DNA of 64,000 bases from the sequence record PZ445453.1; one strand, given 5' to 3'. Positions 47,907-53,395 of this stretch are shown one piece after another. The stretch comes from a phage. Positions within the stretch are counted from its first letter, which is position 1. Each line of letters opens with the position of its first letter. The notes under the pieces are model-generated. The model did no database searches. It worked only from the letters and a program-made list of their open reading frames with translations, and was not told the DNA's origin. Both the position numbers and the translations under genes were made by a program.

Positions 47907-49640
47907 ATGAATATTTTTGCACCTTTTGCTACTGATTGGTATAAACCTGGTCACAAGCAGATGTACAACCAAAATACAAAACTCATTTTCTCTAATTTAA
48001 CTCCTCGTAATGATAAAAACTTTGCACACTATGCAGATCGTGAAGCACGTGGTGTCATTGTTTTAGGTATTCGTCGAGCAGTAACCGATGCTCTTGTAAC
48101 TATGTGGGACGGCTTCTTTAAAATGTCTCGTAGTGCAGCAGTAAATAAATTTTATCGTATGTCTAAGAATGCATTAGGTGCTTCTGCTCCTTCTGCTGAG
48201 TGTTGGGGTGAATTGCACGATTTAGGTTATCTTCCGCTGGAAGTTCGATCTCTGCCGGAAGGTGTTTTGTGTCCTATTGGTGTTCCTGTGTTTACTGTGC
48301 ATAATACTTTAGAAAAATTCTTTTGGTTAACTAACTATGTGGAAACACTGTTGTCAGATGAAACTTGGAAGACAATGACTAATGCCACAGCAGCTTTTCA
48401 GTATAAGCGTATCGCTATGGCATATGCGATGGCAACGTGTGATAATATTGATCACGTTAACTTCCAGTGTCATGATTTTAGCCTACGTGGTTTAAGCAAT
48501 ATCGAAGATGGTTATAAGAGTGGTATCGCTCATTTGGCATCTTTCACAGGAACAGATAATATTCTGGCTATTGAAACTGTGCATGATTATTATGGTATTG
48601 ATTATGATCAGTTTGTTGCAGGTTCTATTCCGGCAACAGAACATTCAGTAGCAACAACTAACATTGGAGCTATTGTTGAAGATCTGAAGAAACATTTCCC
48701 ACATCTTAAAGATGATGTAGATGGGCTTCGTTATGTAGCAGAAAAAGAGTTTCTTCGTCGTTATATCGAAGAAATTGTTCCAGAAGGTTTTTGTTCATAT
48801 GTAGCAGACTCTTATGACTATTGGGCTGTATTGACTCGCATTCTGGTAGAATTGAAAGATTCCATTATGTCACGAAATGGTCGTCTTGTTATTCGTCCAG
48901 ATTCAGGAGATCCGGTTAAAGTTGTTGCAGGATACAATGTTGAATCTTTTGATAACTATGAAGACCTCTTAAATAATGGTATTGCGACAGCCACTGAAGT
49001 AGTTCATTTGGCTGATGTTAATAAGTATTACAATGTTCTTCAGGATTGCAGCGTTGCTGATTGTATTGACGAAACTTATGAGATTCCTTATTGTGAAGCA
49101 GTAGGTTCTATTCAAATCCTTTGGGAAGTGTTTGGTGGTACTATCAACCGAAAAGGCTACAAGGTTCTTGATCAGCATATCGGTATGATTTATGGCGATT
49201 CTATTACTGTTGAACGAGAACACGAAATCTTACGCCGACTGAAGAAGAAAGGTTTTGCAGCTTCCAATATTGTATTTGGTGTTGGTAGTTATACTTATCA
49301 GTTCAATACACGAGATACTTTTGGTTTTGCTGTTAAAGCAACAGGTAGTATTATCGGTGAACACGAGATTTTGGTAAGTAAAGAGCCTAAAACTGATCCT
49401 GGTAAACGCTCTGCAAAAGGTTTTATTAAGGTTGTTAAGGATGCCAATGGTAATCTCTCTCTTGTAGATAATCTTTCTTTTAAAGATATCCAGGATGAAG
49501 ACAATGAATTACAAGTTATCTTCAAGGATGGTAAGGTTATTATACCACAAGTAGAAGGACGTGATGAAACATTCACTGATATCCGCAACCGTGTTGACGT
49601 AGAGGTTCTTCGTACTATGGGAACCATCCAGGTTGACTAA
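47907..49640 (+). CDS. nadV: nicotinamide phosphoribosyltransferase (Nampt)
   Basis: N-terminal TDWYKPGHKQMY resembles Nampt DSYKVTHYKQYP; SFTGTDN block. Confidence 0.88.
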   Translation: MNIFAPFATDWYKPGHKQMYNQNTKLIFSNLTPRNDKNFAHYADREARGVIVLGIRRAVTDALVTMWDGFFKMSRSAAVNKFYRMSKNALGASAPSAECWGELHDLGYLPLEVRSLPEGVLCPIGVPVFTVHNTLEKFFWLTNYVETLLSDETWKTMTNATAAFQYKRIAMAYAMATCDNIDHVNFQCHDFSLRGLSNIEDGYKSGIAHLASFTGTDNILAIETVHDYYGIDYDQFVAGSIPATEHSVATTNIGAIVEDLKKHFPHLKDDVDGLRYVAEKEFLRRYIEEIVPEGFCSYVADSYDYWAVLTRILVELKDSIMSRNGRLVIRPDSGDPVKVVAGYNVESFDNYEDLLNNGIATATEVVHLADVNKYYNVLQDCSVADCIDETYEIPYCEAVGSIQILWEVFGGTINRKGYKVLDQHIGMIYGDSITVEREHEILRRLKKKGFAASNIVFGVGSYTYQFNTRDTFGFAVKATGSIIGEHEILVSKEPKTDPGKRSAKGFIKVVKDANGNLSLVDNLSFKDIQDEDNELQVIFKDGKVIIPQVEGRDETFTDIRNRVDVEVLRTMGTIQVD

Positions 49641-49711: not shown

Positions 49712-49933
49712 ATGAAACAACATAATTTTTATTTTCGTTGCCGAGCCTGTAACAGACACTTGACTAATCATTCCCGTAGAGACAGGAATGGTAATATTCA
49801 AGAGTCGGATCTATGCTCGATTTGTACAAGTTTGGCATTCGACGACAGTCCCGAAAGGGTTTATCAACATCAAAGTGTAACTGATCTTCTTCTAAATTAC
49901 ACAGCACCAGAGGAGGAATTAGATTTCACATAA
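49712..49933 (+). CDS. small zinc-ribbon protein
   Basis: CRACNRH...CSIC. Confidence 0.5.
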   Translation: MKQHNFYFRCRACNRHLTNHSRRDRNGNIQESDLCSICTSLAFDDSPERVYQHQSVTDLLLNYTAPEEELDFT

Positions 49934-50387: not shown

Positions 50388-50463
50388 GGTTCCATAGCTC
50401 ACTGACGAGAGCGCACACCTCATAAGTGTCGAGGGCAGGGATTGTAACCCTGGGGAACCACCA
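50388..50463 (+). tRNA. tRNA-Met/Ile2-type (anticodon CAT), non-canonical T-loop
   Basis: Acceptor GGTTCCA/GGGAACC, D-stem GCTC/GAGC, anticodon loop CTCATAA, T-stem CAGGG/CCCTG with loop ATTGTAA, encoded CCA. Confidence 0.5.
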
Positions 50464-50494
50464 TTTAAAAGGAGGTGCTATGCATCTCCTATAT

Positions 50495-50580
50495 GCAAGT
50501 GTGGTGGAATTGGTGATACACATTGTGCTTAAAACGCAACGCTTAAATGATTGAGGGTTCGAATCCCTCCACTTGCACCA
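50495..50580 (+). tRNA. tRNA-Leu (anticodon TAA), type II
   Basis: Perfect 7-bp acceptor, anticodon stem TTGTG/CGCAA loop CTTAAAA, 13-nt variable arm, T-arm GAGGG-TTCGAAT-CCCTC, CCA. Confidence 0.75.
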
Positions 50581-50621
50581 ATCTAGGCTTCAATTTAAAT
50601 AATATTTTTAGTAAAAATATC

Positions 50622-50650
50622 TTGACATCTACTTAGTTTTTTGTTATAGT
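50622..50650 (+). promoter_or_regulatory. sigma70-like promoter TTGACA-N17-TATAGT
   Basis: Read upstream of tRNA-like gene at 50662. Confidence 0.55.
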
Positions 50651-50661
50651 TATTGTGAAAA

Positions 50662-50743
50662 CGGGGTGTATCTCACCTGACTTCTAATCAGGCGTTAACC
50701 GAGTAATTGGAGTATGCAGGTTCGAATCCTGTCACCCCGACCA
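50662..50743 (+). tRNA. tRNA-like gene with Arg(TCT) anticodon arm, atypical
   Basis: Acceptor CGGGGTG/CACCCCG, T-arm GCAGG-TTCGAAT-CCTGT and CCA are canonical, but only 7 nt separate acceptor from anticodon stem and a 23-nt variable region follows. Confidence 0.4.
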
Positions 50744-50761
50744 AAAAGTTTTAAAAACTAC

Positions 50762-50791
50762 TTGACAAGCAAGATAGTTTTATGTTAGAGT
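50762..50791 (+). promoter_or_regulatory. promoter TTGACA-N18-(TG)-TAGAGT
   Basis: cTTGACAagcaagatagttttaTGtTAGAGT. Confidence 0.45.
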
Positions 50792-50806
50792 TAAAATATG
50801 ATAACG

Positions 50807-50896
50807 GGAAGGTAGGGCGCAGCGGTGCGCAACCAGGTTTGAACCCTGGCCCATTGTAGCGATACGGTGATGGTTCGACTCCATTATCTTCCTCCA
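50807..50896 (+). tRNA. tRNA-Ser (anticodon TGA), type II
   Basis: Acceptor GGAAGGT/ATCTTCC, anticodon stem CCAGG/CCTGG loop TTTGAAC, long variable arm, T-loop TTCGACT, CCA. Confidence 0.7.
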
Positions 50897-50941
50897 AATT
50901 CAATTAGTAACAGATTCAGGTTGTTTTGAATAATTAAAAAC

Positions 50942-51027
50942 GGTAGATTGGTGAAATGGTAGCCACAACAGTTTGCTAAACTGTCGTCGGAAACGGCGTG
51001 TAGGTTCAAGTCCTACATCTACCGCCA
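50942..51027 (+). tRNA. tRNA-Ser (anticodon GCT), type II
   Basis: Acceptor GGTAGAT/ATCTACC, anticodon stem ACAGT/ACTGT loop TTGCTAA, variable hairpin, T-arm GTAGG-TTCAAGT-CCTAC, CCA. Confidence 0.75.
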
Positions 51028-51166
51028 AGTTATCTTTAATGTAGCTTGTACTCTTACTTTAGCAGAGTAAATCTTCGGCAAGTGGCAGTAACCACTTTAC
51101 CGATATCCCATAGTCAAGTGCCGCAAACACTGGCTATTTTAAAGATAATTTATACGAGGAGGATGT

Positions 51167-51547
51167 ATGCCAAGTAATGATTATATGCGGGAATACATGA
51201 AAACTCGGTGGCAGAAGCGAAGAGCTTCCGCAATCCTCCAGCTTGGAGGTAAATGTGTTAATTGTGGGTCTGTAGATGACTTGGAATTTGATCATAAAGA
51301 TTCAAGCGAGAAGAAGTTTTATATTAGTCGAATGAGTTCATGTTCGGAGGCTAAATGGCAAGAAGAACTTGCCAAATGTCAACTTTTGTGTCATGCTTGT
51401 CACATGAAGAAGACAAGAATTTCCCAAGACATGGGAAACAGAATTAGAACCACGGTGTGTGTTTGCGGAGCAGTATTCCATAGTACAAAGGCTTATGCTG
51501 GACATACACGGTGGTGTAAAGAGTATGCATCGTTAGCCAAGCGGTAA
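51167..51547 (+). CDS. HNH homing-type endonuclease inside tRNA cluster
   Basis: CVNCGS...EFDHKD...LLCHACH; last 21 nt overlap the start of tRNA-Lys. Confidence 0.7.
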   Translation: MPSNDYMREYMKTRWQKRRASAILQLGGKCVNCGSVDDLEFDHKDSSEKKFYISRMSSCSEAKWQEELAKCQLLCHACHMKKTRISQDMGNRIRTTVCVCGAVFHSTKAYAGHTRWCKEYASLAKR

Positions 51548-51601
51548 GGCACTTGACTTTTAATCAAGGGAGCGAAGGTTCGAATCCTTCACGATGTACC
51601 A
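51527..51601 (+). tRNA. tRNA-Lys (anticodon TTT)
   Basis: Acceptor GCATCGT/ACGATGT, anticodon stem CTTGA/TCAAG loop CTTTTAA, T-arm GAAGG-TTCGAAT-CCTTC, CCA. Confidence 0.75.
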
Positions 51602-51606
51602 AACAC

Positions 51607-51693
51607 GTAGGTATCGCATAGCGGCAATTGCTGGAGACTGTAAATCTCTTGCCCTTCGGGGCTTCGTTGGTTCGAGTCCAACTACCTGCACCA
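51607..51693 (+). tRNA. tRNA-Tyr (anticodon GTA), type II
   Basis: Acceptor GTAGGTA/TACCTGC, anticodon stem GGAGA/TCTCT loop CTGTAAA, long variable arm, T-loop TTCGAGT, CCA. Confidence 0.7.
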
Positions 51694-51700
51694 AATTAAA

Positions 51701-51785
51701 GATGGATTGGCCTAGTGGTTGGGCGACGGACTGTTAATCCGTGAACGAAAGTTCTAGCAAGGTTCAAATCCTTGATCCATCGCCA
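51701..51785 (+). tRNA. tRNA-Asn (anticodon GTT) with unusually long variable arm
   Basis: Perfect acceptor GATGGAT/ATCCATC, anticodon stem ACGGA/TCCGT loop CTGTTAA, ~15-nt variable hairpin GAAC-GAAA-GTTC, T-arm CAAGG-TTCAAAT-CCTTG, CCA. Confidence 0.6.
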
Positions 51786-51864
51786 AATAGTGCTTGTAGA
51801 GTTAATAGAAACCTCTAGAATTTTCTAGAATTGTAGGTATCAAATCCTACCAAGCAAATATTTT

Positions 51865-51939
51865 GCTCCTATCGTATAACGGCTATTACGGTTGCCTTGT
51901 AAGCAACTTATCAGGGTTCGAGTCCTTGTGGGAGCACCA
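51865..51939 (+). tRNA. tRNA-Thr (anticodon TGT)
   Basis: Acceptor GCTCCTA/TGGGAGC, anticodon stem GTTGC/GCAAC loop CTTGTAA, T-loop TTCGAGT, CCA. Confidence 0.75.
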
Positions 51940-51962
51940 ATTTTAACTCTAAAGGAGTATAT

Positions 51963-52286
51963 GTGACAGAAAAAGAGTTAGAGAAATATTTTAATATCAA
52001 TGTTTTCGATGGTTTTGATGACATTGAAGATGTTGAAAGATATTATGAAGTAGAGTTAGATAAGGATAACATTGTAATTCTTTCTGCCACTTATGATTGT
52101 GCATATTATGAAGGTGAATCTCACGTTTATTTTTATGATATGAAAACATCTTTGTTTTATGAAGTACACGCATATCATTGTTCTTGTTATGGCTTAGAAG
52201 GTCAGTGGGAACCTGAAGAAATAGGTGATTTGGACTTCACTGTTGCATATCTAAACAGACGTGGTGCATCTACTATTTTAAAATAA
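51963..52286 (+). CDS. hypothetical protein inside tRNA cluster
   Basis: 107-aa ORF with AAGGAG RBS. Confidence 0.5.
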   Translation: MTEKELEKYFNINVFDGFDDIEDVERYYEVELDKDNIVILSATYDCAYYEGESHVYFYDMKTSLFYEVHAYHCSCYGLEGQWEPEEIGDLDFTVAYLNRRGASTILK

Positions 52287-52300
52287 ATATCAAAAGCCTC

Positions 52301-52330
52301 TTGACAAAGGGGCTAATAATATGTTAGAGT
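52301..52330 (+). promoter_or_regulatory. promoter TTGACA-N18-(TG)-TAGAGT
   Basis: cTTGACAaaggggctaataataTGtTAGAGT upstream of tRNA-Gly. Confidence 0.45.
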
Positions 52331-52341
52331 AATATTGTTAA

Positions 52342-52416
52342 GCGGGTATAGTGTTAATGGTAGCATATGAGGTTTCCACCCTCCAGGTGCAGGTTCAAGT
52401 CCTGTTACTCGCTCCA
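52342..52416 (+). tRNA. tRNA-Gly (anticodon TCC)
   Basis: Acceptor GCGGGTA/TACTCGC, anticodon loop TTTCCAC, T-arm GCAGG-TTCAAGT-CCTGT, CCA. Confidence 0.65.
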
Positions 52417-52515
52417 AGATTATTTAAATGGAATCGCTAGAGAAAATTTCTCTTTTCGCTCATGGTTTTCTCCTTCAAACTCTAGCGGTTCTTTTTAAGT
52501 GATTTTTAGTTTTAT

Positions 52516-52590
52516 TGGAGATTAGCCTAGTGGGAAGGCAACGGCCTTTGAAGTCGTGATGACTAGGTTCGATTCCTAGATCTCCAGCCA
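52516..52590 (+). tRNA. tRNA-Gln (anticodon TTG)
   Basis: U1-A72 acceptor TGGAGAT/ATCTCCA, anticodon stem ACGGC/GTCGT loop CTTTGAA, T-arm CTAGG-TTCGATT-CCTAG, CCA. Confidence 0.75.
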
Positions 52591-52597
52591 AGATTTA

Positions 52598-52673
52598 CAG
52601 TGCGTAGCGCAGTTGGTAGCGTGGGAGCTTTGGACGCTTCAGGTCGCAGGTTCGAGTCCTGCCGCACTGACCA
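52598..52673 (+). tRNA. tRNA-Pro (anticodon TGG)
   Basis: Acceptor CAGTGCG/CGCACTG, D-arm GCGC-AGTTGGTA-GCGT, anticodon loop TTTGGAC, T-arm GCAGG-TTCGAGT-CCTGC, CCA. Confidence 0.78.
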
Positions 52674-52678
52674 AATTT

Positions 52679-52753
52679 GCAGAGATAGCTGAGACGGATT
52701 AGTGCTACCCTGAAAAGGTAGAAAGGATGGATCGTTACCATCTCTCTGCACCA
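52679..52753 (+). tRNA. tRNA-Phe (anticodon GAA), atypical T-loop
   Basis: Acceptor GCAGAGA/TCTCTGC, anticodon stem CTACC/GGTAG loop CTGAAAA, T-arm GATGG-ATCGTTA-CCATC, CCA. Confidence 0.65.
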
Positions 52754-52830
52754 AATAACACCATCCAAGGAGTAGACTTGGTTAACTGTCAATAGCACAT
52801 TGAGGCTTCTTACAGTGGTGTACTTATTAT

Positions 52831-52915
52831 GGCTAAGTGGTGGAATGGTATACACGATACGCTTAGAACGTATTGCCCCAAGGGATTGTGAGTTCGAGTC
52901 TCACCTTAGCTACCA
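52831..52915 (+). tRNA. tRNA-Leu (anticodon TAG), type II
   Basis: Acceptor GGCTAAG/CTTAGCT, anticodon stem ATACG/CGTAT loop CTTAGAA, 14-nt variable arm, T-arm GTGAG-TTCGAGT-CTCAC, CCA. Confidence 0.75.
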
Positions 52916-53003
52916 TATCTAAGAGATATCATAGGGTTTGCAACGGATATCTACCGTCCTGTTAAGGATACCACGCCAAGACGGGTTATAAAGGGTTAGC
53001 CAT

Positions 53004-53079
53004 TGATAGTGTGAAGCTGGCGTTTCGAGTGCTTTCATAAGGCATTGCGAGAAGAGTTCGATTCTCTTACTATCAACCA
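53004..53079 (+). tRNA. tRNA with CAT anticodon (Met or Ile2-lysidine type)
   Basis: Acceptor TGATAGT/ACTATCA, anticodon loop TTCATAA, T-arm AAGAG-TTCGATT-CTCTT, CCA. Confidence 0.55.
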
Positions 53080-53094
53080 AATTACTACAGATTG

Positions 53095-53173
53095 CGCGGG
53101 ATAGAGGAGTCTGGTCGTCCTCGCCAGTTTCATATGCTGGAGATCGTAGGTTCAAATCCTACTCCCGCCTCCA
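53095..53173 (+). tRNA. tRNA with CAT anticodon and unpaired 1:72
   Basis: Acceptor CGCGGGA/TCCCGCC with C1xC72 mismatch, D-stem GAGG/CCTC, anticodon stem CCAGT/GCTGG loop TTCATAT, T-arm GTAGG-TTCAAAT-CCTAC, CCA. Confidence 0.55.
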
Positions 53174-53231
53174 ATAAATACCTCCCTTCTGGTGTAATGA
53201 TTAAGTTACATTGACACTTCAAGGAACTCAT

Positions 53232-53314
53232 AGCCGGGTAGATTTAAAAGAGTATGGTACTCAATATGGCTCCAAACCATAGATCAAGGGGTTCGATTCC
53301 TCACCTTGCTGCCA
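53232..53314 (+). tRNA. tRNA-Trp (anticodon CCA); 5' boundary uncertain
   Basis: Perfect anticodon arm TATGG-CTCCAAA-CCATA (53265-53281), T-loop TTCGATT, 3' acceptor CCTTGCT + G + CCA; best 5' partner AGCCGGG at 53232 implies ~7 extra nt in D region. Confidence 0.45.
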
Positions 53315-53319
53315 ATTAT

Positions 53320-53395
53320 TGTGGTATCGTACAGATGGTTAGTACACTCGACCGATAATCGAGAAACAACGGTTCGACTCCGTTTACCACGACCA
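53320..53395 (+). tRNA. tRNA-Ile (anticodon GAT)
   Basis: Acceptor TGTGGTA/TACCACG, D-arm GTAC-AGATGGTTA-GTAC, anticodon stem CTCGA/TCGAG loop CCGATAA, T-arm AACGG-TTCGACT-CCGTT, CCA. Confidence 0.7.

What the first reader, a model, noticed from the sequence alone, without database searches (positions are those of the whole stretch)
50388..53395. Large tRNA cluster with several structurally atypical members
About 18 tRNA genes lie in 3 kb. Most fold canonically with encoded CCA. Exceptions: 50662-50743 has a perfect Arg(TCT) anticodon arm but almost no D-arm and a 23-nt variable region; 53232-53314 has a perfect Trp(CCA) anticodon arm but the 5' acceptor partner is displaced by ~7 nt; tRNA-Asn has a ~15-nt variable hairpin; tRNA-Phe and the first CAT tRNA have non-TTC T-loops. 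Three CAT tRNAs are present, one (53095-53173) with an unpaired C1xC72 that resembles an initiator. A degenerate tRNA-like segment at 51790-51860 has a T-arm-like hairpin GTAGG-TATCAAAT-CCTAC but no usable anticodon arm.
Basis: seen in the sequence. Interest (0 to 1): 0.55.

Follow-up and report, generated by a model that had tools for sequence, protein, structure and literature searches.

The report
Phage tRNA cluster with rewired tRNAs
This is the tRNA gene cluster of a known E. coli phage, and two of its "defective-looking" genes (Arg and Trp) belong to conserved, phage-only tRNA families whose core is wired differently from the universal cloverleaf, which has apparently not been described before.

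Summary
Window 50388-53395 holds 18 tRNA-like genes on the + strand, all with an encoded N73-CCA, plus one anticodon-less relic. The DNA is 100% identical to Escherichia phage JohannJBalmer (Bas62, Justusliebigvirus), whose record annotates only 14 of them.

The two oddest members are not decaying genes.

- **Arg(UCU), 50662-50743.** It belongs to a family of at least 61 distinct sequences from very different phages (Felix O1, PBECO4, T4-like, T5-like, many IMG/VR contigs). The family is absent from 5,426 E. coli genomes. Covariation shows that nucleotides 11-13 pair with three nucleotides downstream of the anticodon arm, so that arm is nested inside the "D helix". An invariant UAAnUGGAGUAU linker follows. 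The anticodon is always Arg (UCU, once CCU).
- **Trp(CCA), 53232-53314.** It belongs to a second family with an 8-bp acceptor stem, a 4-bp T stem and an analogous long-range 3-bp helix. One member carries a Lys(CUU) anticodon.

The most likely reading is that both are working decoders of AGA and UGG. Why the core is rewired is unknown; evasion of tRNA-cleaving defences is a guess. I found no prior description.

The parts
50388..50463 (+). tRNA(CAT) no. 1. Cloverleaf with an A7xG66 and a C27xC43 mismatch, D loop ACTGACGA (no GG) and T loop ATTGTAA. Either Met or Ile2; undecided.
   Evidence: ARAGORN; no Rfam tRNA hit even at E<=10; annotated tRNA-Met or 'hypothetical tRNA' in some relatives, and essentially confined to Justusliebigvirus.
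50495..50580 (+). tRNA-Leu(TAA), canonical class II.
50622..50650 (+). Sigma-70-type promoter TTGACA-17-TATAGT with TGn extension. The -10 hexamer ends 11 nt before the Arg tRNA 5' end.
   Evidence: Best consensus match in the region, 11 of 12. It is a consensus match only; no expression data.
50662..50743 (+). Type A rewired tRNA-Arg(UCU), 82 nt: acceptor 7 bp; U8 A9 U10; helix X 5' strand CUC; A; anticodon arm CCUGA-CUUCUAA-UCAGG; bulge CGUUAAC; C; helix X 3' strand GAG; UAAUUGGAGUAU; T arm GCAGG-UUCGAAU-CCUGU; A73; CCA.
   Evidence: Rfam tRNA 40 bits; own model R1 101.5 bits against at most 26.9 for the other tRNAs; family covariation; not called by ARAGORN; not annotated in the record.
50672..50674 (+). 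Helix X, 5' strand (CTC, positions 11-13 of the Arg tRNA).
   Evidence: Pairs with 50701-50703. Pair 12-41 is UA37/AU11/GC9 and pair 13-40 is CG46/GC6/UA5, with no unpaired case in 57 sequences.
50701..50703 (+). Helix X, 3' strand (GAG, positions 40-42), located downstream of the anticodon arm.
   Evidence: The alternative hairpin 38-41/46-49 was rejected.
50762..50791 (+). Promoter-like site TTGACA-18-TAGAGT upstream of tRNA-Ser(TGA).
   Evidence: 10 of 12, TG present.
50807..50896 (+). tRNA-Ser(TGA). It folds as 8-bp acceptor / 4-bp T stem with a 5-bp D stem, a 4-nt D loop and a long variable arm (tRNA-Sec/allo-tRNA-like).
   Evidence: ARAGORN; MFE fold; best Rfam hit is tRNA-Sec at 35.3 bits, below threshold; homologues in other enterobacterial phages fit 8/4 or 7/5 equally well.
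50942..51027 (+). tRNA-Ser(GCT).
51167..51547 (+). Small ORF annotated as a putative HNH homing endonuclease. It overlaps the first 21 nt of tRNA-Lys.
   Evidence: No Pfam hit at E<=0.01. Absent at this position in phage Paula; a different HNH gene lies between Gln and Pro in PATM.
51527..51601 (+). tRNA-Lys(TTT).
   Evidence: 72.8 bits.
51607..51693 (+). tRNA-Tyr(GTA), class II.
51701..51785 (+). tRNA-Asn(GTT) with a 15-nt variable region containing the hairpin GAAC-GAAA-GTTC.
   Evidence: Long-variable-arm Asn tRNAs recur in other phage contigs.
51786..51864 (+). tRNA-shaped spacer, probably a relic: 6-bp acceptor-like stem (51791-51796 with 51851-51856), 3-bp D-like stem, a 6-bp hairpin with a tetraloop instead of an anticodon arm, a T-like arm with an 8-nt loop, and no CCA.
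   Evidence: MFE fold, z = -2.7. Found only in Justusliebigvirus at >=95% identity, so covariation cannot be tested.
51865..51939 (+). tRNA-Thr(TGT).
51963..52286 (+). 107-aa ORF of unknown function inside the cluster.
   Evidence: No Pfam hit.
52301..52330 (+). Promoter-like site TTGACA-18-TAGAGT upstream of tRNA-Gly.
52342..52416 (+). tRNA-Gly(TCC).
52516..52590 (+). tRNA-Gln(TTG).
52598..52673 (+). tRNA-Pro(TGG).
52679..52753 (+). tRNA-Phe(GAA) with T loop ATCGTTA (A54/U58 instead of T54/A58).
   Evidence: The same T loop occurs in tRNAs of unrelated phage contigs.
52831..52915 (+). tRNA-Leu(TAG).
53004..53079 (+). tRNA(CAT) no. 2, with U1-A72, a 6-nt D loop and a 6-bp anticodon stem. Either Met or Ile2; undecided.
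   Evidence: ARAGORN; no Rfam hit; not annotated in this record, tRNA-Met in relatives.
53095..53173 (+). Initiator-like tRNA(CAT): C1xC72 mismatch and A11:U24, but without the three G:C pairs at the bottom of the anticodon stem.
   Evidence: Annotated tRNA-fMet.
53232..53314 (+). Type B rewired tRNA-Trp(CCA), 83 nt: acceptor 8 bp (AGCCGGGU/ACCUUGCU, with C4xU mismatch); A9; helix X' 5' strand GAU; UUAAAA; hairpin GAGUA-UGG-UACUC; AA; anticodon arm UAUGG-CUCCAAA-CCAUA; G; helix X' 3' strand AUC; AA; T arm GGGG-UUCGAUU-CCUC (4 bp); G73; CCA.
   Evidence: ARAGORN low-threshold mode only, and in a different register; Rfam 22.9 bits; own model R2 107.4 bits on the identical sequence in L001, against at most 30.5 for the other tRNAs of that locus; covariation.
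53241..53243 (+). Helix X', 5' strand (GAT).
   Evidence: Pairs with 53283-53285. Pair 10-55 is GC6/UA4/AU3 and pair 11-54 is GC6/CG4/AU3, with no unpaired case.
53283..53285 (+). Helix X', 3' strand (ATC), in the 'variable region'.
53320..53395 (+). tRNA-Ile(GAT).

Best explanation
The region is the tRNA gene cluster of a phi92-like E. coli phage. It lies on the + strand and carries several near-consensus sigma-70-type promoter matches. Together with host tRNAs, its 18 CCA-encoding tRNAs would serve mainly A/U-ending codons that the AT-rich phage uses heavily.

Two members are not cloverleaf tRNAs, yet are most likely functional decoders.

Type A is Arg-UCU at 50662-50743. It keeps a normal acceptor stem, T arm and anticodon arm but has no D hairpin. 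Nucleotides 11-13 pair with three nucleotides downstream of the anticodon arm, so the anticodon arm is nested in that helix. An invariant 12-nt linker, UAAnUGGAGUAU, then leads to the T arm. I infer that the GG of this linker plays the part of G18/G19 at the elbow, and that the following A plays the part of A20, the main ArgRS determinant.

Type B is Trp-CCA at 53232-53314. It has an 8-bp acceptor stem and a 4-bp T stem. A 3-bp helix between nucleotides 10-12 and the variable region encloses a UGG-loop hairpin and the anticodon arm.

What is shown: both folds are conserved, and both are phage-specific. What is inferred: charging by host ArgRS and TrpRS, and use on the ribosome. Why the core is rewired is unknown. 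One speculation is that it lets the tRNA escape tRNA-cleaving immune nucleases.
For: Identity and context:
- The 3.2 kb is 100% identical to Bas62, and 14 of the 18 genes are annotated there.

Type A, breadth and structure:
- It has full-length homologues in Felix O1, PBECO4, a T4-like Pectobacterium phage, Klebsiella phages of 110-119 kb and a Vibrio phage.
- Three pattern scans of IMG/VR gave 61 distinct sequences, 57 of them exactly 82 nt.
- Pairing is 99.5% in the acceptor stem, 94.7% in the anticodon stem and 98.9% in the T stem.
- In helix X, pair 12-41 is UA37/AU11/GC9 and pair 13-40 is CG46/GC6/UA5, with no unpaired case. The covariation score is 0.79, against 0.19 for shuffles and 0.10-0.15 for slid controls.
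- An unbiased all-against-all mutual-information scan puts these two pairs among the top 12, and all the others in that top 12 are ordinary stem pairs.

Type A, evidence for a decoding role:
- A scan that did not specify the anticodon found only UCU, plus one CCU, with U33 and A37 invariant.
- The discriminator is G or A in 54 of 57 sequences, CCA is encoded in 40 of 57, and C35, U36 and a GGA motif are invariant. These match the published Arg identity set of A20, C35, U/G36 and A/G73 (PMC9976931).
- 50 of 61 loci have another tRNA gene within 3 kb. Clusters of 15-28 tRNAs carry Arg ACG/TCG/CCG genes, but a canonical UCU gene appears in only two loci.
- AGA is 24% of Arg codons, 10.4 per 1000, in 56 window ORFs.
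- The element has its own 11-of-12 promoter match.

Type A, phage specificity:
- It gives no match in 5,426 E. coli genomes.
- Among 185,579 species genomes it occurs on only six contigs, all from metagenome-assembled genomes.

Type B:
- It was found in the subfamilies Stephanstirmvirinae and Ounavirinae and in metagenomic contigs.
- The 8th acceptor pair is UA5/GC4/AU2/CG2. X' pairs are GC/UA/AU and GC/CG/AU. Neither has an unpaired case.
- A1-U72 and G73 fit the E. coli Trp identity set.
Against: - There are no expression, end-mapping, aminoacylation or structure-probing data for either RNA.
- RNAalifold on its own does not predict helix X. The single-sequence fold of the Trp element is no more stable than shuffled sequence, z = +0.35.
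- The invariance of the 12-nt linker is partly ascertainment, because two of the three scans required part of it. However, hits from the scan that did not require it still carry UAAnUGGA.
- The type B alignment is small (13 sequences from about 7 lineages) and was fitted to the model. In Felix O1-type members the third X' pair is a U-U mismatch.
- 17 of 57 type A genes lack CCA. Several of those lie inside 12-15-bp leader-trailer helices, which is unusual for bacterial tRNA precursors.
- The equivalences G18/G19/A20 are reasoning from sequence, not tested.
Confidence: 0.68

Rival explanations
1. The atypical loci are decaying tRNA pseudogenes with no function, left behind by turnover in a recombination-prone cluster.
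For: Standard finders fail on them. ARAGORN misses the Arg element and misses 58 of 61 family members. Rfam scores the Trp element below threshold. The cluster does contain a real relic at 51786-51864, and mobile HNH genes that differ between close relatives.
Against: Both elements are conserved full-length in unrelated phage lineages, with compensatory changes in every helix and invariant anticodon loops. Fifty-seven of the 61 type A sequences have exactly the same length of 82 nt. The Arg element has the best promoter match in the region. Pseudogenes would not keep base pairing through dozens of double substitutions.
Confidence: 0.04
2. The rewired RNAs are tRNA mimics that are not used for decoding. 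They might act as decoys or inhibitors of host tRNA-targeting nucleases or of tRNA-modifying or tRNA-sensing proteins, or as substrates of another tRNA-dependent reaction.
For: The core is non-canonical, whereas the ribosome, ArgRS and modification enzymes normally contact the D arm. Many anti-phage systems cleave tRNAs, and the authors of the AriB study raise the possibility that overexpressed phage tRNAs inhibit that nuclease (PMC12409363). Some type A genes lack CCA and sit in long leader-trailer helices.
Against: The anticodon is fixed to Arg AGR types, with a normal 7-nt loop, U33 and A37. Type A fills the otherwise empty UCU slot in large phage tRNA sets. The acceptor and T domains that EF-Tu and RNase P read are canonical, and CCA is encoded in most members. 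The phage uses AGA heavily. A decoy role and a decoding role are not mutually exclusive.
Confidence: 0.2
3. There is no long-range helix. The Arg element is simply a D-armless tRNA with a long variable arm that forms its own hairpin (CCGA-GUAA-UUGG), as the minimum-free-energy fold suggests.
For: The MFE fold of the window sequence predicts exactly that hairpin. RNAalifold does not predict helix X.
Against: On 57 sequences the hairpin is only 71% paired, shows a double-sided change in a single sequence at one of its four pairs, and is broken in 35 of 57 at its closing pair. Helix X pairs 12-41 and 13-40 are never broken and carry 20 and 11 double changes.
Confidence: 0.04

Closest known systems
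Phage tRNA gene clusters (T4, T5, phi92 and similar) that supplement host tRNAs
   Same: The tRNA genes are tightly packed on one strand and interspersed with small ORFs and homing endonucleases. The anticodons mostly match A/U-ending codons that the phage uses heavily. The cluster itself is annotated in GenBank for this phage and its relatives.
   Different: Four of the 18 genes are missing from the record. Two of those four have folds that the finders are not built for.
D-arm-lacking mitochondrial tRNAs, such as metazoan mt-tRNA-Ser(AGY) and Ascaris mt-tRNA-Ser(UCU) (reviews PMC7609411, PMC4013460)
   Same: There is no D hairpin between the acceptor and anticodon stems, only a short connector. 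By coincidence the anticodon is also UCU, reading AGR codons.
   Different: Type A is encoded by phages of bacteria and would work with a bacterial ribosome. It keeps a canonical T arm and T loop. It has a covariation-supported 3-4-bp helix that encloses the anticodon arm, and a conserved 12-nt GG-containing linker. None of these is a feature of the mitochondrial molecules as the reviews describe them.
(8/4) tRNAs: tRNA-Sec-like and allo-tRNAs (Mukai et al. 2017, PMC5389517)
   Same: They have an 8-bp acceptor stem plus a 4-bp T stem. That paper reports (8/4) tRNA-Ser and tRNA-His in phages. The Ser(UGA) gene at 50807-50896 fits this type, and type B shares the 8/4 branch.
   Different: Type B has no long variable arm. 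It has a 10-nt stretch between the acceptor stem and the D-like hairpin, and an extra helix between nucleotides 10-12 and the variable region. Its anticodons are Trp and Lys. Searching that paper for 'tRNATrp' and 'tRNAArg' found no occurrence.
tRNA-Pyl-type compact core (review PMC7609411)
   Same: Some other phage Trp tRNAs seen here (L192, L197, L200) have a small D hairpin with a 3-4-nt loop, a 7-bp anticodon stem and a 3-nt variable loop. They share the UGG triloop hairpin with type B.
   Different: The window's Trp tRNA has a 5-bp anticodon stem, the long 5' linker and helix X'. It is not of the compact type.

Membership tests
Canonical cloverleaf tRNA (Rfam RF00005): Arg element 50662-50743 | Score at or above the curated gathering threshold (29 bits) | tested here: met
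   40 bits.
Canonical cloverleaf tRNA (Rfam RF00005): Arg element 50662-50743 | 7-bp acceptor stem, 5-bp anticodon stem with 7-nt loop (U33, purine 37), 5-bp T stem with a GTTCRA-type loop, N73-CCA | tested here: met
Canonical cloverleaf tRNA (Rfam RF00005): Arg element 50662-50743 | D arm: a hairpin (stem 10-13/22-25 closing the D loop) lying between nucleotide 9 and the anticodon stem | tested here: not met
   Only UCUCA lies between U8-A9 and the anticodon stem. The partner of nucleotides 11-13 lies after the anticodon arm.
Canonical cloverleaf tRNA (Rfam RF00005): Trp element 53232-53314 | Score at or above the gathering threshold | tested here: not met
   22.9 bits against 29.
Canonical cloverleaf tRNA (Rfam RF00005): Trp element 53232-53314 | 7/5 acceptor/T branch and a 2-nt connector to the D arm | tested here: not met
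   The 8th acceptor pair covaries (UA/GC/AU/CG, none unpaired), the T stem is 4 bp, and 10 nt separate the acceptor stem from the D-like hairpin.
D-arm-lacking mitochondrial tRNA | No D hairpin; short connector instead | tested here: met
   Arg element.
D-arm-lacking mitochondrial tRNA | Encoded in a metazoan mitochondrial genome and used by its specialised translation system | tested here: not met
   Encoded by lytic phages of enterobacteria and many uncultured phages.
D-arm-lacking mitochondrial tRNA | Shortened or degenerate T arm (a 10-nt T arm in the Ascaris tRNA-Ser(UCU) example of PMC7609411) and loss of the conserved D-loop/T-loop elbow nucleotides (the latter from my own knowledge) | tested here: not met
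   The T loop UUCGA is invariant and a UGGA motif is conserved. Whether they actually interact is not testable here.
(8/4) tRNA / allo-tRNA (Mukai 2017) | 8-bp acceptor stem plus 4-bp T stem | tested here: met
   Trp element. For Ser(UGA) the sequences are compatible with 8/4 but covariation does not separate it from 7/5.
(8/4) tRNA / allo-tRNA (Mukai 2017) | Long variable arm and an extended D stem with a 4-nt loop (tRNA-Sec/Ser-like) | tested here: not met
   Not met for the Trp element, whose variable region is 6 nt, three of which form helix X'. Met for Ser(UGA) at 50807-50896.
Bacterial initiator tRNA: 53095-53173 | Mismatch at pair 1-72 | tested here: met
   C1xC72. That these three features define bacterial initiators is from my own knowledge.
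Bacterial initiator tRNA: 53095-53173 | A11:U24 in the D stem | tested here: met
   D stem GAGG/CCTC, read.
Bacterial initiator tRNA: 53095-53173 | Three consecutive G:C pairs at the bottom of the anticodon stem (29-31/39-41) | tested here: not met
   The stem is CCAGU/GCUGG, giving A29-U41, G30-C40 and U31-G39.
tRNA-Ile2 (CAU modified to lysidine): 50388-50463 or 53004-53079 | C34 converted to lysidine by TilS and charging by IleRS | not testable with these tools
   ATA is 9.9 per 1000 codons, so a decoder would be useful. No isotype-specific model was available, and sequence alone did not decide between the two genes.

The most novel reading that the evidence does not exclude
Phages of E. 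coli and many other bacteria use, on ordinary bacterial ribosomes, elongator tRNAs whose core is not a cloverleaf. In these the anticodon arm is nested inside the D helix (type A: Arg-UCU/CCU; type B: Trp-CCA and Lys-CUU). On this reading the rewiring evolved because it makes them poor substrates for tRNA-cleaving immune nucleases, or for a phage's own host-tRNA-degrading activity, while they are still accepted by the synthetase, EF-Tu and the ribosome.
Probability: 0.2. Interest if true: 0.9.

Novelty: new variant of a known kind. Interest (0 to 1): 0.74.

Why it matters
[quoted passage not shown] The 2020 review of non-canonical tRNAs never mentions phages or viruses.

If type A and type B are charged and used, they would be natural tRNAs with a differently connected core working in E. 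coli translation. That would bear on three questions: what the ribosome, ArgRS and TrpRS really need from the D region; how to design orthogonal tRNAs; and how phages cope with tRNA-cleaving defences.

There is also a practical point. ARAGORN misses these genes, and the GenBank records examined here leave the Arg gene unannotated or label it tRNA-Undet or tRNA-OTHER. This holds even in classic phages such as Felix O1, so phage tRNA repertoires and codon-compensation analyses undercount Arg(UCU) and Trp.

Tried and rejected
- **Alternative fold for the Arg element.** I tested a variable-arm hairpin at 38-41/46-49 on the family alignment and rejected it.
- **RNAalifold on the family.** It gave only the three ordinary helices. 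Helix X rests on pair counts and mutual information, not on energy.
- **Relic at 51786-51864.** A distant BLAST found only near-identical Justusliebigvirus copies, so no covariation test is possible. I treat it as a relic.
- **First CAT tRNA.** Homologues outside the genus are few and weak. I could not decide which CAT gene is Met and which is Ile2.
- **ORFs in and around the cluster.** Pfam gave nothing at E<=0.01 except a sub-threshold zinc-finger hit on the ORF at 49712-49933.
- **First IMG/VR pattern.** With 15 specified bases it returned mostly chance matches in coding DNA. I filtered these by T arm and acceptor pairing.
- **Literature.** Eight full-text searches and targeted reading of seven papers found no description of a D-arm-rewired phage tRNA-Arg or tRNA-Trp. 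The library lacks most subscription journals, so this is absence of evidence only.
- **Explanations ruled out by the sequence.** An att-site tRNA fragment is excluded because the 5' acceptor strand is present and covaries. A permuted or intron-containing gene is excluded because the termini are normal and no excision yields a cloverleaf.

Full report
**What the region is.** ARAGORN finds 16 tRNA genes, all on the + strand between 50388 and 53395, and none elsewhere in the 64 kb. Rfam at gathering thresholds finds 14, including one ARAGORN misses, 50662-50740 at 40 bits. Rfam does not find the CAT tRNAs at 50388 and 53004, or Ser(UGA) at 50807 as a tRNA. The best Rfam hit for Ser(UGA) is tRNA-Sec at 35 bits, below threshold. 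A Trp(CCA) candidate appears only at lowered thresholds: ARAGORN -ps and Rfam at 22.9 bits. My own loose scan for acceptor stem + T arm + NCCA returns exactly these 18 loci as the only NCCA-ending candidates in the window.

The 3.2 kb is 100% identical to Escherichia phage JohannJBalmer (Bas62, MZ501084.1; Justusliebigvirus, phi92-like). About 55 related records cover most of it. That record annotates 14 tRNAs. It omits the CAT genes at 50388 and 53004, the Arg element and the Trp element.

**The Arg(UCU) element is a member of a widespread family.** A BLAST of 50640-50760 gave full-length matches of 80-87% identity in unrelated phages: Felix O1 and other Felixounavirus, the jumbo phage PBECO4, a T4-like Pectobacterium phage, Klebsiella phages of 110-119 kb and a Vibrio phage. 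Almost all of these matches are unannotated.

Between these phages the acceptor and anticodon stems are completely different yet complementary. The connector UAUCUCA and the 23-nt "variable" region are nearly identical. Three pattern scans of IMG/VR were run: one anchored 5' of the anticodon, one on the variable region leaving both candidate strands free, and one that did not specify the anticodon. After filtering they gave 61 distinct sequences, 57 of them exactly 82 nt.

**The fold (type A).** On the ungapped 57-sequence alignment, pairing is 99.5% in the acceptor stem, 94.7% in the anticodon stem and 98.9% in the T stem. Positions 11-13 pair with 40-42:
- Pair 11-42 is invariant C-G.
- Pair 12-41 is UA37/AU11/GC9.
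- Pair 13-40 is CG46/GC6/UA5.
- None of these has an unpaired case.
- Pair 14-39 forms in 14 of 57 sequences.

The covariation score is 0.79, against 0.19 for shuffles and 0.10-0.15 for slid controls. An all-against-all mutual-information scan, made without reference to any structure, ranks 12-41 and 13-40 among the top 12 pairs. The other ten are the ordinary stem pairs.

The hairpin that the single-sequence MFE fold puts in the variable region fails on the alignment. It is 71% paired and broken in 35 of 57 sequences at its closing pair. RNAalifold alone does not propose helix X, so the helix rests on covariation, not on energy.

The resulting architecture is:
- acceptor stem, 7 bp
- U8 A9 U10 (invariant)
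- helix X 5' strand
- anticodon arm
- bulge of 7 nt, CRUYAAN
- helix X 3' strand
- UAAnUGGAGUAU
- T arm
- acceptor 3' strand, then N73-CCA.

The anticodon arm is therefore nested in what, by position and sequence (CUC/GAG), looks like the D stem. A D-loop-like GG-containing stretch follows that helix instead of being closed by it. Reading GGA as G18-G19-A20 is my inference.

**Evidence that type A decodes AGR codons.**
- The scan that did not specify the anticodon found UCU in all sequences but one, which has CCU. Loops are CUUCUAA in 48 of 57, with variation only at positions 32 and 38.
- C35 and U36 are invariant. The discriminator is G or A in 54 of 57, and CCA is encoded in 40 of 57. The published arginine identity set is A20, C35, U/G36 and A/G73 (PMC9976931).
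- 50 of 61 loci have another tRNA gene within 3 kb.
- Clusters with 15-28 tRNAs carry Arg ACG/TCG/CCG genes. A canonical Arg(UCU) gene appears in only two loci, and in one of them the family member is the CCU variant.
- In the T4-like phage the element sits between tRNA-Met and tRNA-Ser in the tRNA cluster.
- In 56 ORFs of the window AGA is 24% of Arg codons, 10.4 per 1000. From memory, E. coli uses about 2 per 1000. The other phage tRNAs likewise match A-ending codons that the phage uses heavily.
- The gene has the best sigma-70 consensus match in the region, TTGACA-17-TGnTATAGT. Its -10 hexamer ends 11 nt before the tRNA 5' end.

**Specificity and annotation status of type A.** My covariance model R1 scores the window element at 101.5 bits and ordinary tRNAs at 26.9 bits or less. 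The motif is absent from 5,426 complete E. coli genomes. Among one genome each of 185,579 species it occurs on only six contigs, all from metagenome-assembled genomes. ARAGORN misses 58 of 61 members. One relative's record labels the element tRNA-Undet and another tRNA-OTHER.

**The Trp(CCA) element (type B).** Full-length homologues exist in other phages of the subfamily Stephanstirmvirinae (Klebsiella KP13-26, Citrobacter Tr1) and in the subfamily Ounavirinae. On seven sequences, 96% of the cells in my proposed structure are paired.

A model built from them (R2) found further members:
- a BIS47-like Klebsiella phage contig
- Felix O1 itself (L002 2084-2166)
- L186 952-1034, which has the same architecture with a Lys(CUU) anticodon.

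On the 13-sequence alignment, which is fitted to the model and so leans towards it, the counts are:
- The 8th acceptor pair is UA5/GC4/AU2/CG2, with none unpaired.
- The 4-bp T stem is 100% paired.
- The helix between nucleotides 10-12 and the variable region is GC6/UA4/AU3, GC6/CG4/AU3 and UA7/GC1, with two mismatches and three gaps at the third pair.

The layout is:
- acceptor stem, 8 bp
- A9
- X' 5' strand
- six nt
- hairpin with a UGG-type loop
- two nt
- anticodon arm
- one nt
- X' 3' strand
- two nt
- T stem, 4 bp.

A1-U72 and G73 fit the E. coli Trp identity set. This family is smaller and its evidence thinner than for type A, but it shares the same principle: the partner of nucleotides 10-12 lies after the anticodon arm.

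**The other atypical members.**
- **Ser(UGA).** It folds as 8/4 with a 5-bp D stem, a 4-nt loop and a long variable arm. It has homologues of that shape in other enterobacterial phages. (8/4) tRNA-Ser in phages is already described (PMC5389517).
- **tRNA-Asn.** Its long variable hairpin, and the AUCGUUA T loop of tRNA-Phe, recur in unrelated phage contigs.
- **53095-53173.** It has two initiator marks (C1xC72, A11:U24) but lacks the three G:C pairs of the anticodon stem.
- **The other two CAT genes.** I could not decide which is Met and which is Ile2. ATA is frequent at 9.9 per 1000.
- **51786-51864.** It is tRNA-shaped but has no anticodon loop and no CCA, and occurs only within the genus. 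It is best read as a relic.

**Comparison with what is known.** D-armless tRNAs are known from metazoan mitochondria, and 8/4 tRNAs from bacteria and phages. I found no description of a tRNA in which the anticodon arm is enclosed by the D helix, nor of non-cloverleaf Arg or Trp tRNAs in phages. This rests on eight full-text searches and targeted reading of seven papers. A 2024 paper states that all known bacterial tRNAs are canonical. The searchable library lacks most subscription journals, so prior description cannot be excluded.

**Why rewire?** This is unknown. Many defence systems cleave tRNAs, and phage tRNAs can escape through sequence changes. AriB is proposed to contact the D loop as well as the anticodon stem. 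Structural escape is therefore a reasonable but untested idea. A decoy role is a live alternative, and it is compatible with decoding.

**Verdict.** The cluster is ordinary and already annotated. Two unannotated members belong to conserved, phage-specific, non-cloverleaf tRNA families that seem to be undescribed. Their function as decoders is likely but not shown.

Noticed in passing
window 51527-51939: The block Lys(UUU)-Tyr(GUA)-Asn(GUU)-[relic]-Thr(UGU) contains exactly the tRNAs reported as targets of PARIS/AriB (Lys UUU, Thr UGU, Asn GUU; PMC12409363). It also contains tRNA-Tyr, the reported target of Retron-Eco7/Septu. This suggests the block may serve as an anti-defence set.
   Followed up: partly
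window 51167-51547; L207 and L208: The HNH-type homing endonuclease ORF overlaps the 5' end of tRNA-Lys. It is absent at this site in phage Paula. PATM has a different HNH gene between tRNA-Gln and tRNA-Pro. The endonucleases therefore move within the cluster.
   Followed up: partly
L186 952-1034 (IMG/VR contig 3300033075_001163): A tRNA with the type B architecture (8/4, helix ACG/CGU, UGG-loop hairpin) carries a Lys(CUU) anticodon. The fold is therefore not tied to Trp.
   Followed up: partly
L013, L065, L086, L126, L139, L178 (type A loci): In a subset of type A genes CCA is not encoded, and the acceptor stem continues into a 12-15-bp helix formed by leader and trailer. This implies a different processing route.
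   Followed up: no
L192 3178-3255, L197 3708-3779, L200 (IMG/VR): Other phage Trp(CCA) tRNAs have a compact tRNA-Pyl-like core: a D hairpin of 4 bp with a UGG/UUGG loop directly after the acceptor stem, a 7-bp anticodon stem and a 3-nt variable loop.
   Followed up: no
L067, L166, L167, L172, L183, L195, L198 (IMG/VR); window 51701-51785: tRNA-Asn(GUU) genes of 83-91 nt with long variable arms recur in unrelated phage contigs. One contig (L180) has an 86-nt Trp tRNA with a long variable arm. The unusual T loop AUCGUUA of the window's tRNA-Phe also occurs in Asn tRNAs of L065 and L172.
   Followed up: no
window 52431-52496: Between tRNA-Gly and tRNA-Gln, GAATCGCTAGAG (52431-52442) can pair with CTCTAGCGGTTC (52480-52491), followed by TTTTT. 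This could be a long-range terminator-like or processing structure.
   Followed up: no
window 47907-49640 and 55195-57279: The cluster is flanked upstream by a nicotinamide phosphoribosyltransferase gene. Downstream lies a 694-aa ORF that reads like a terminase large subunit. Window coordinates beyond about 54519 would run past the end of the linear GenBank record, so the window comes from a differently permuted copy of the genome.
   Followed up: no
L002 2084-2166 and 1502-1583 (Felix O1, AF320576.1): The classic phage Felix O1 carries both a type A Arg(UCU) gene and a type B-like Trp(CCA) gene. Neither is annotated. The type A gene is overlapped by the annotated 'unknown' ORF100; no annotated feature covers the type B gene.
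   Followed up: partly
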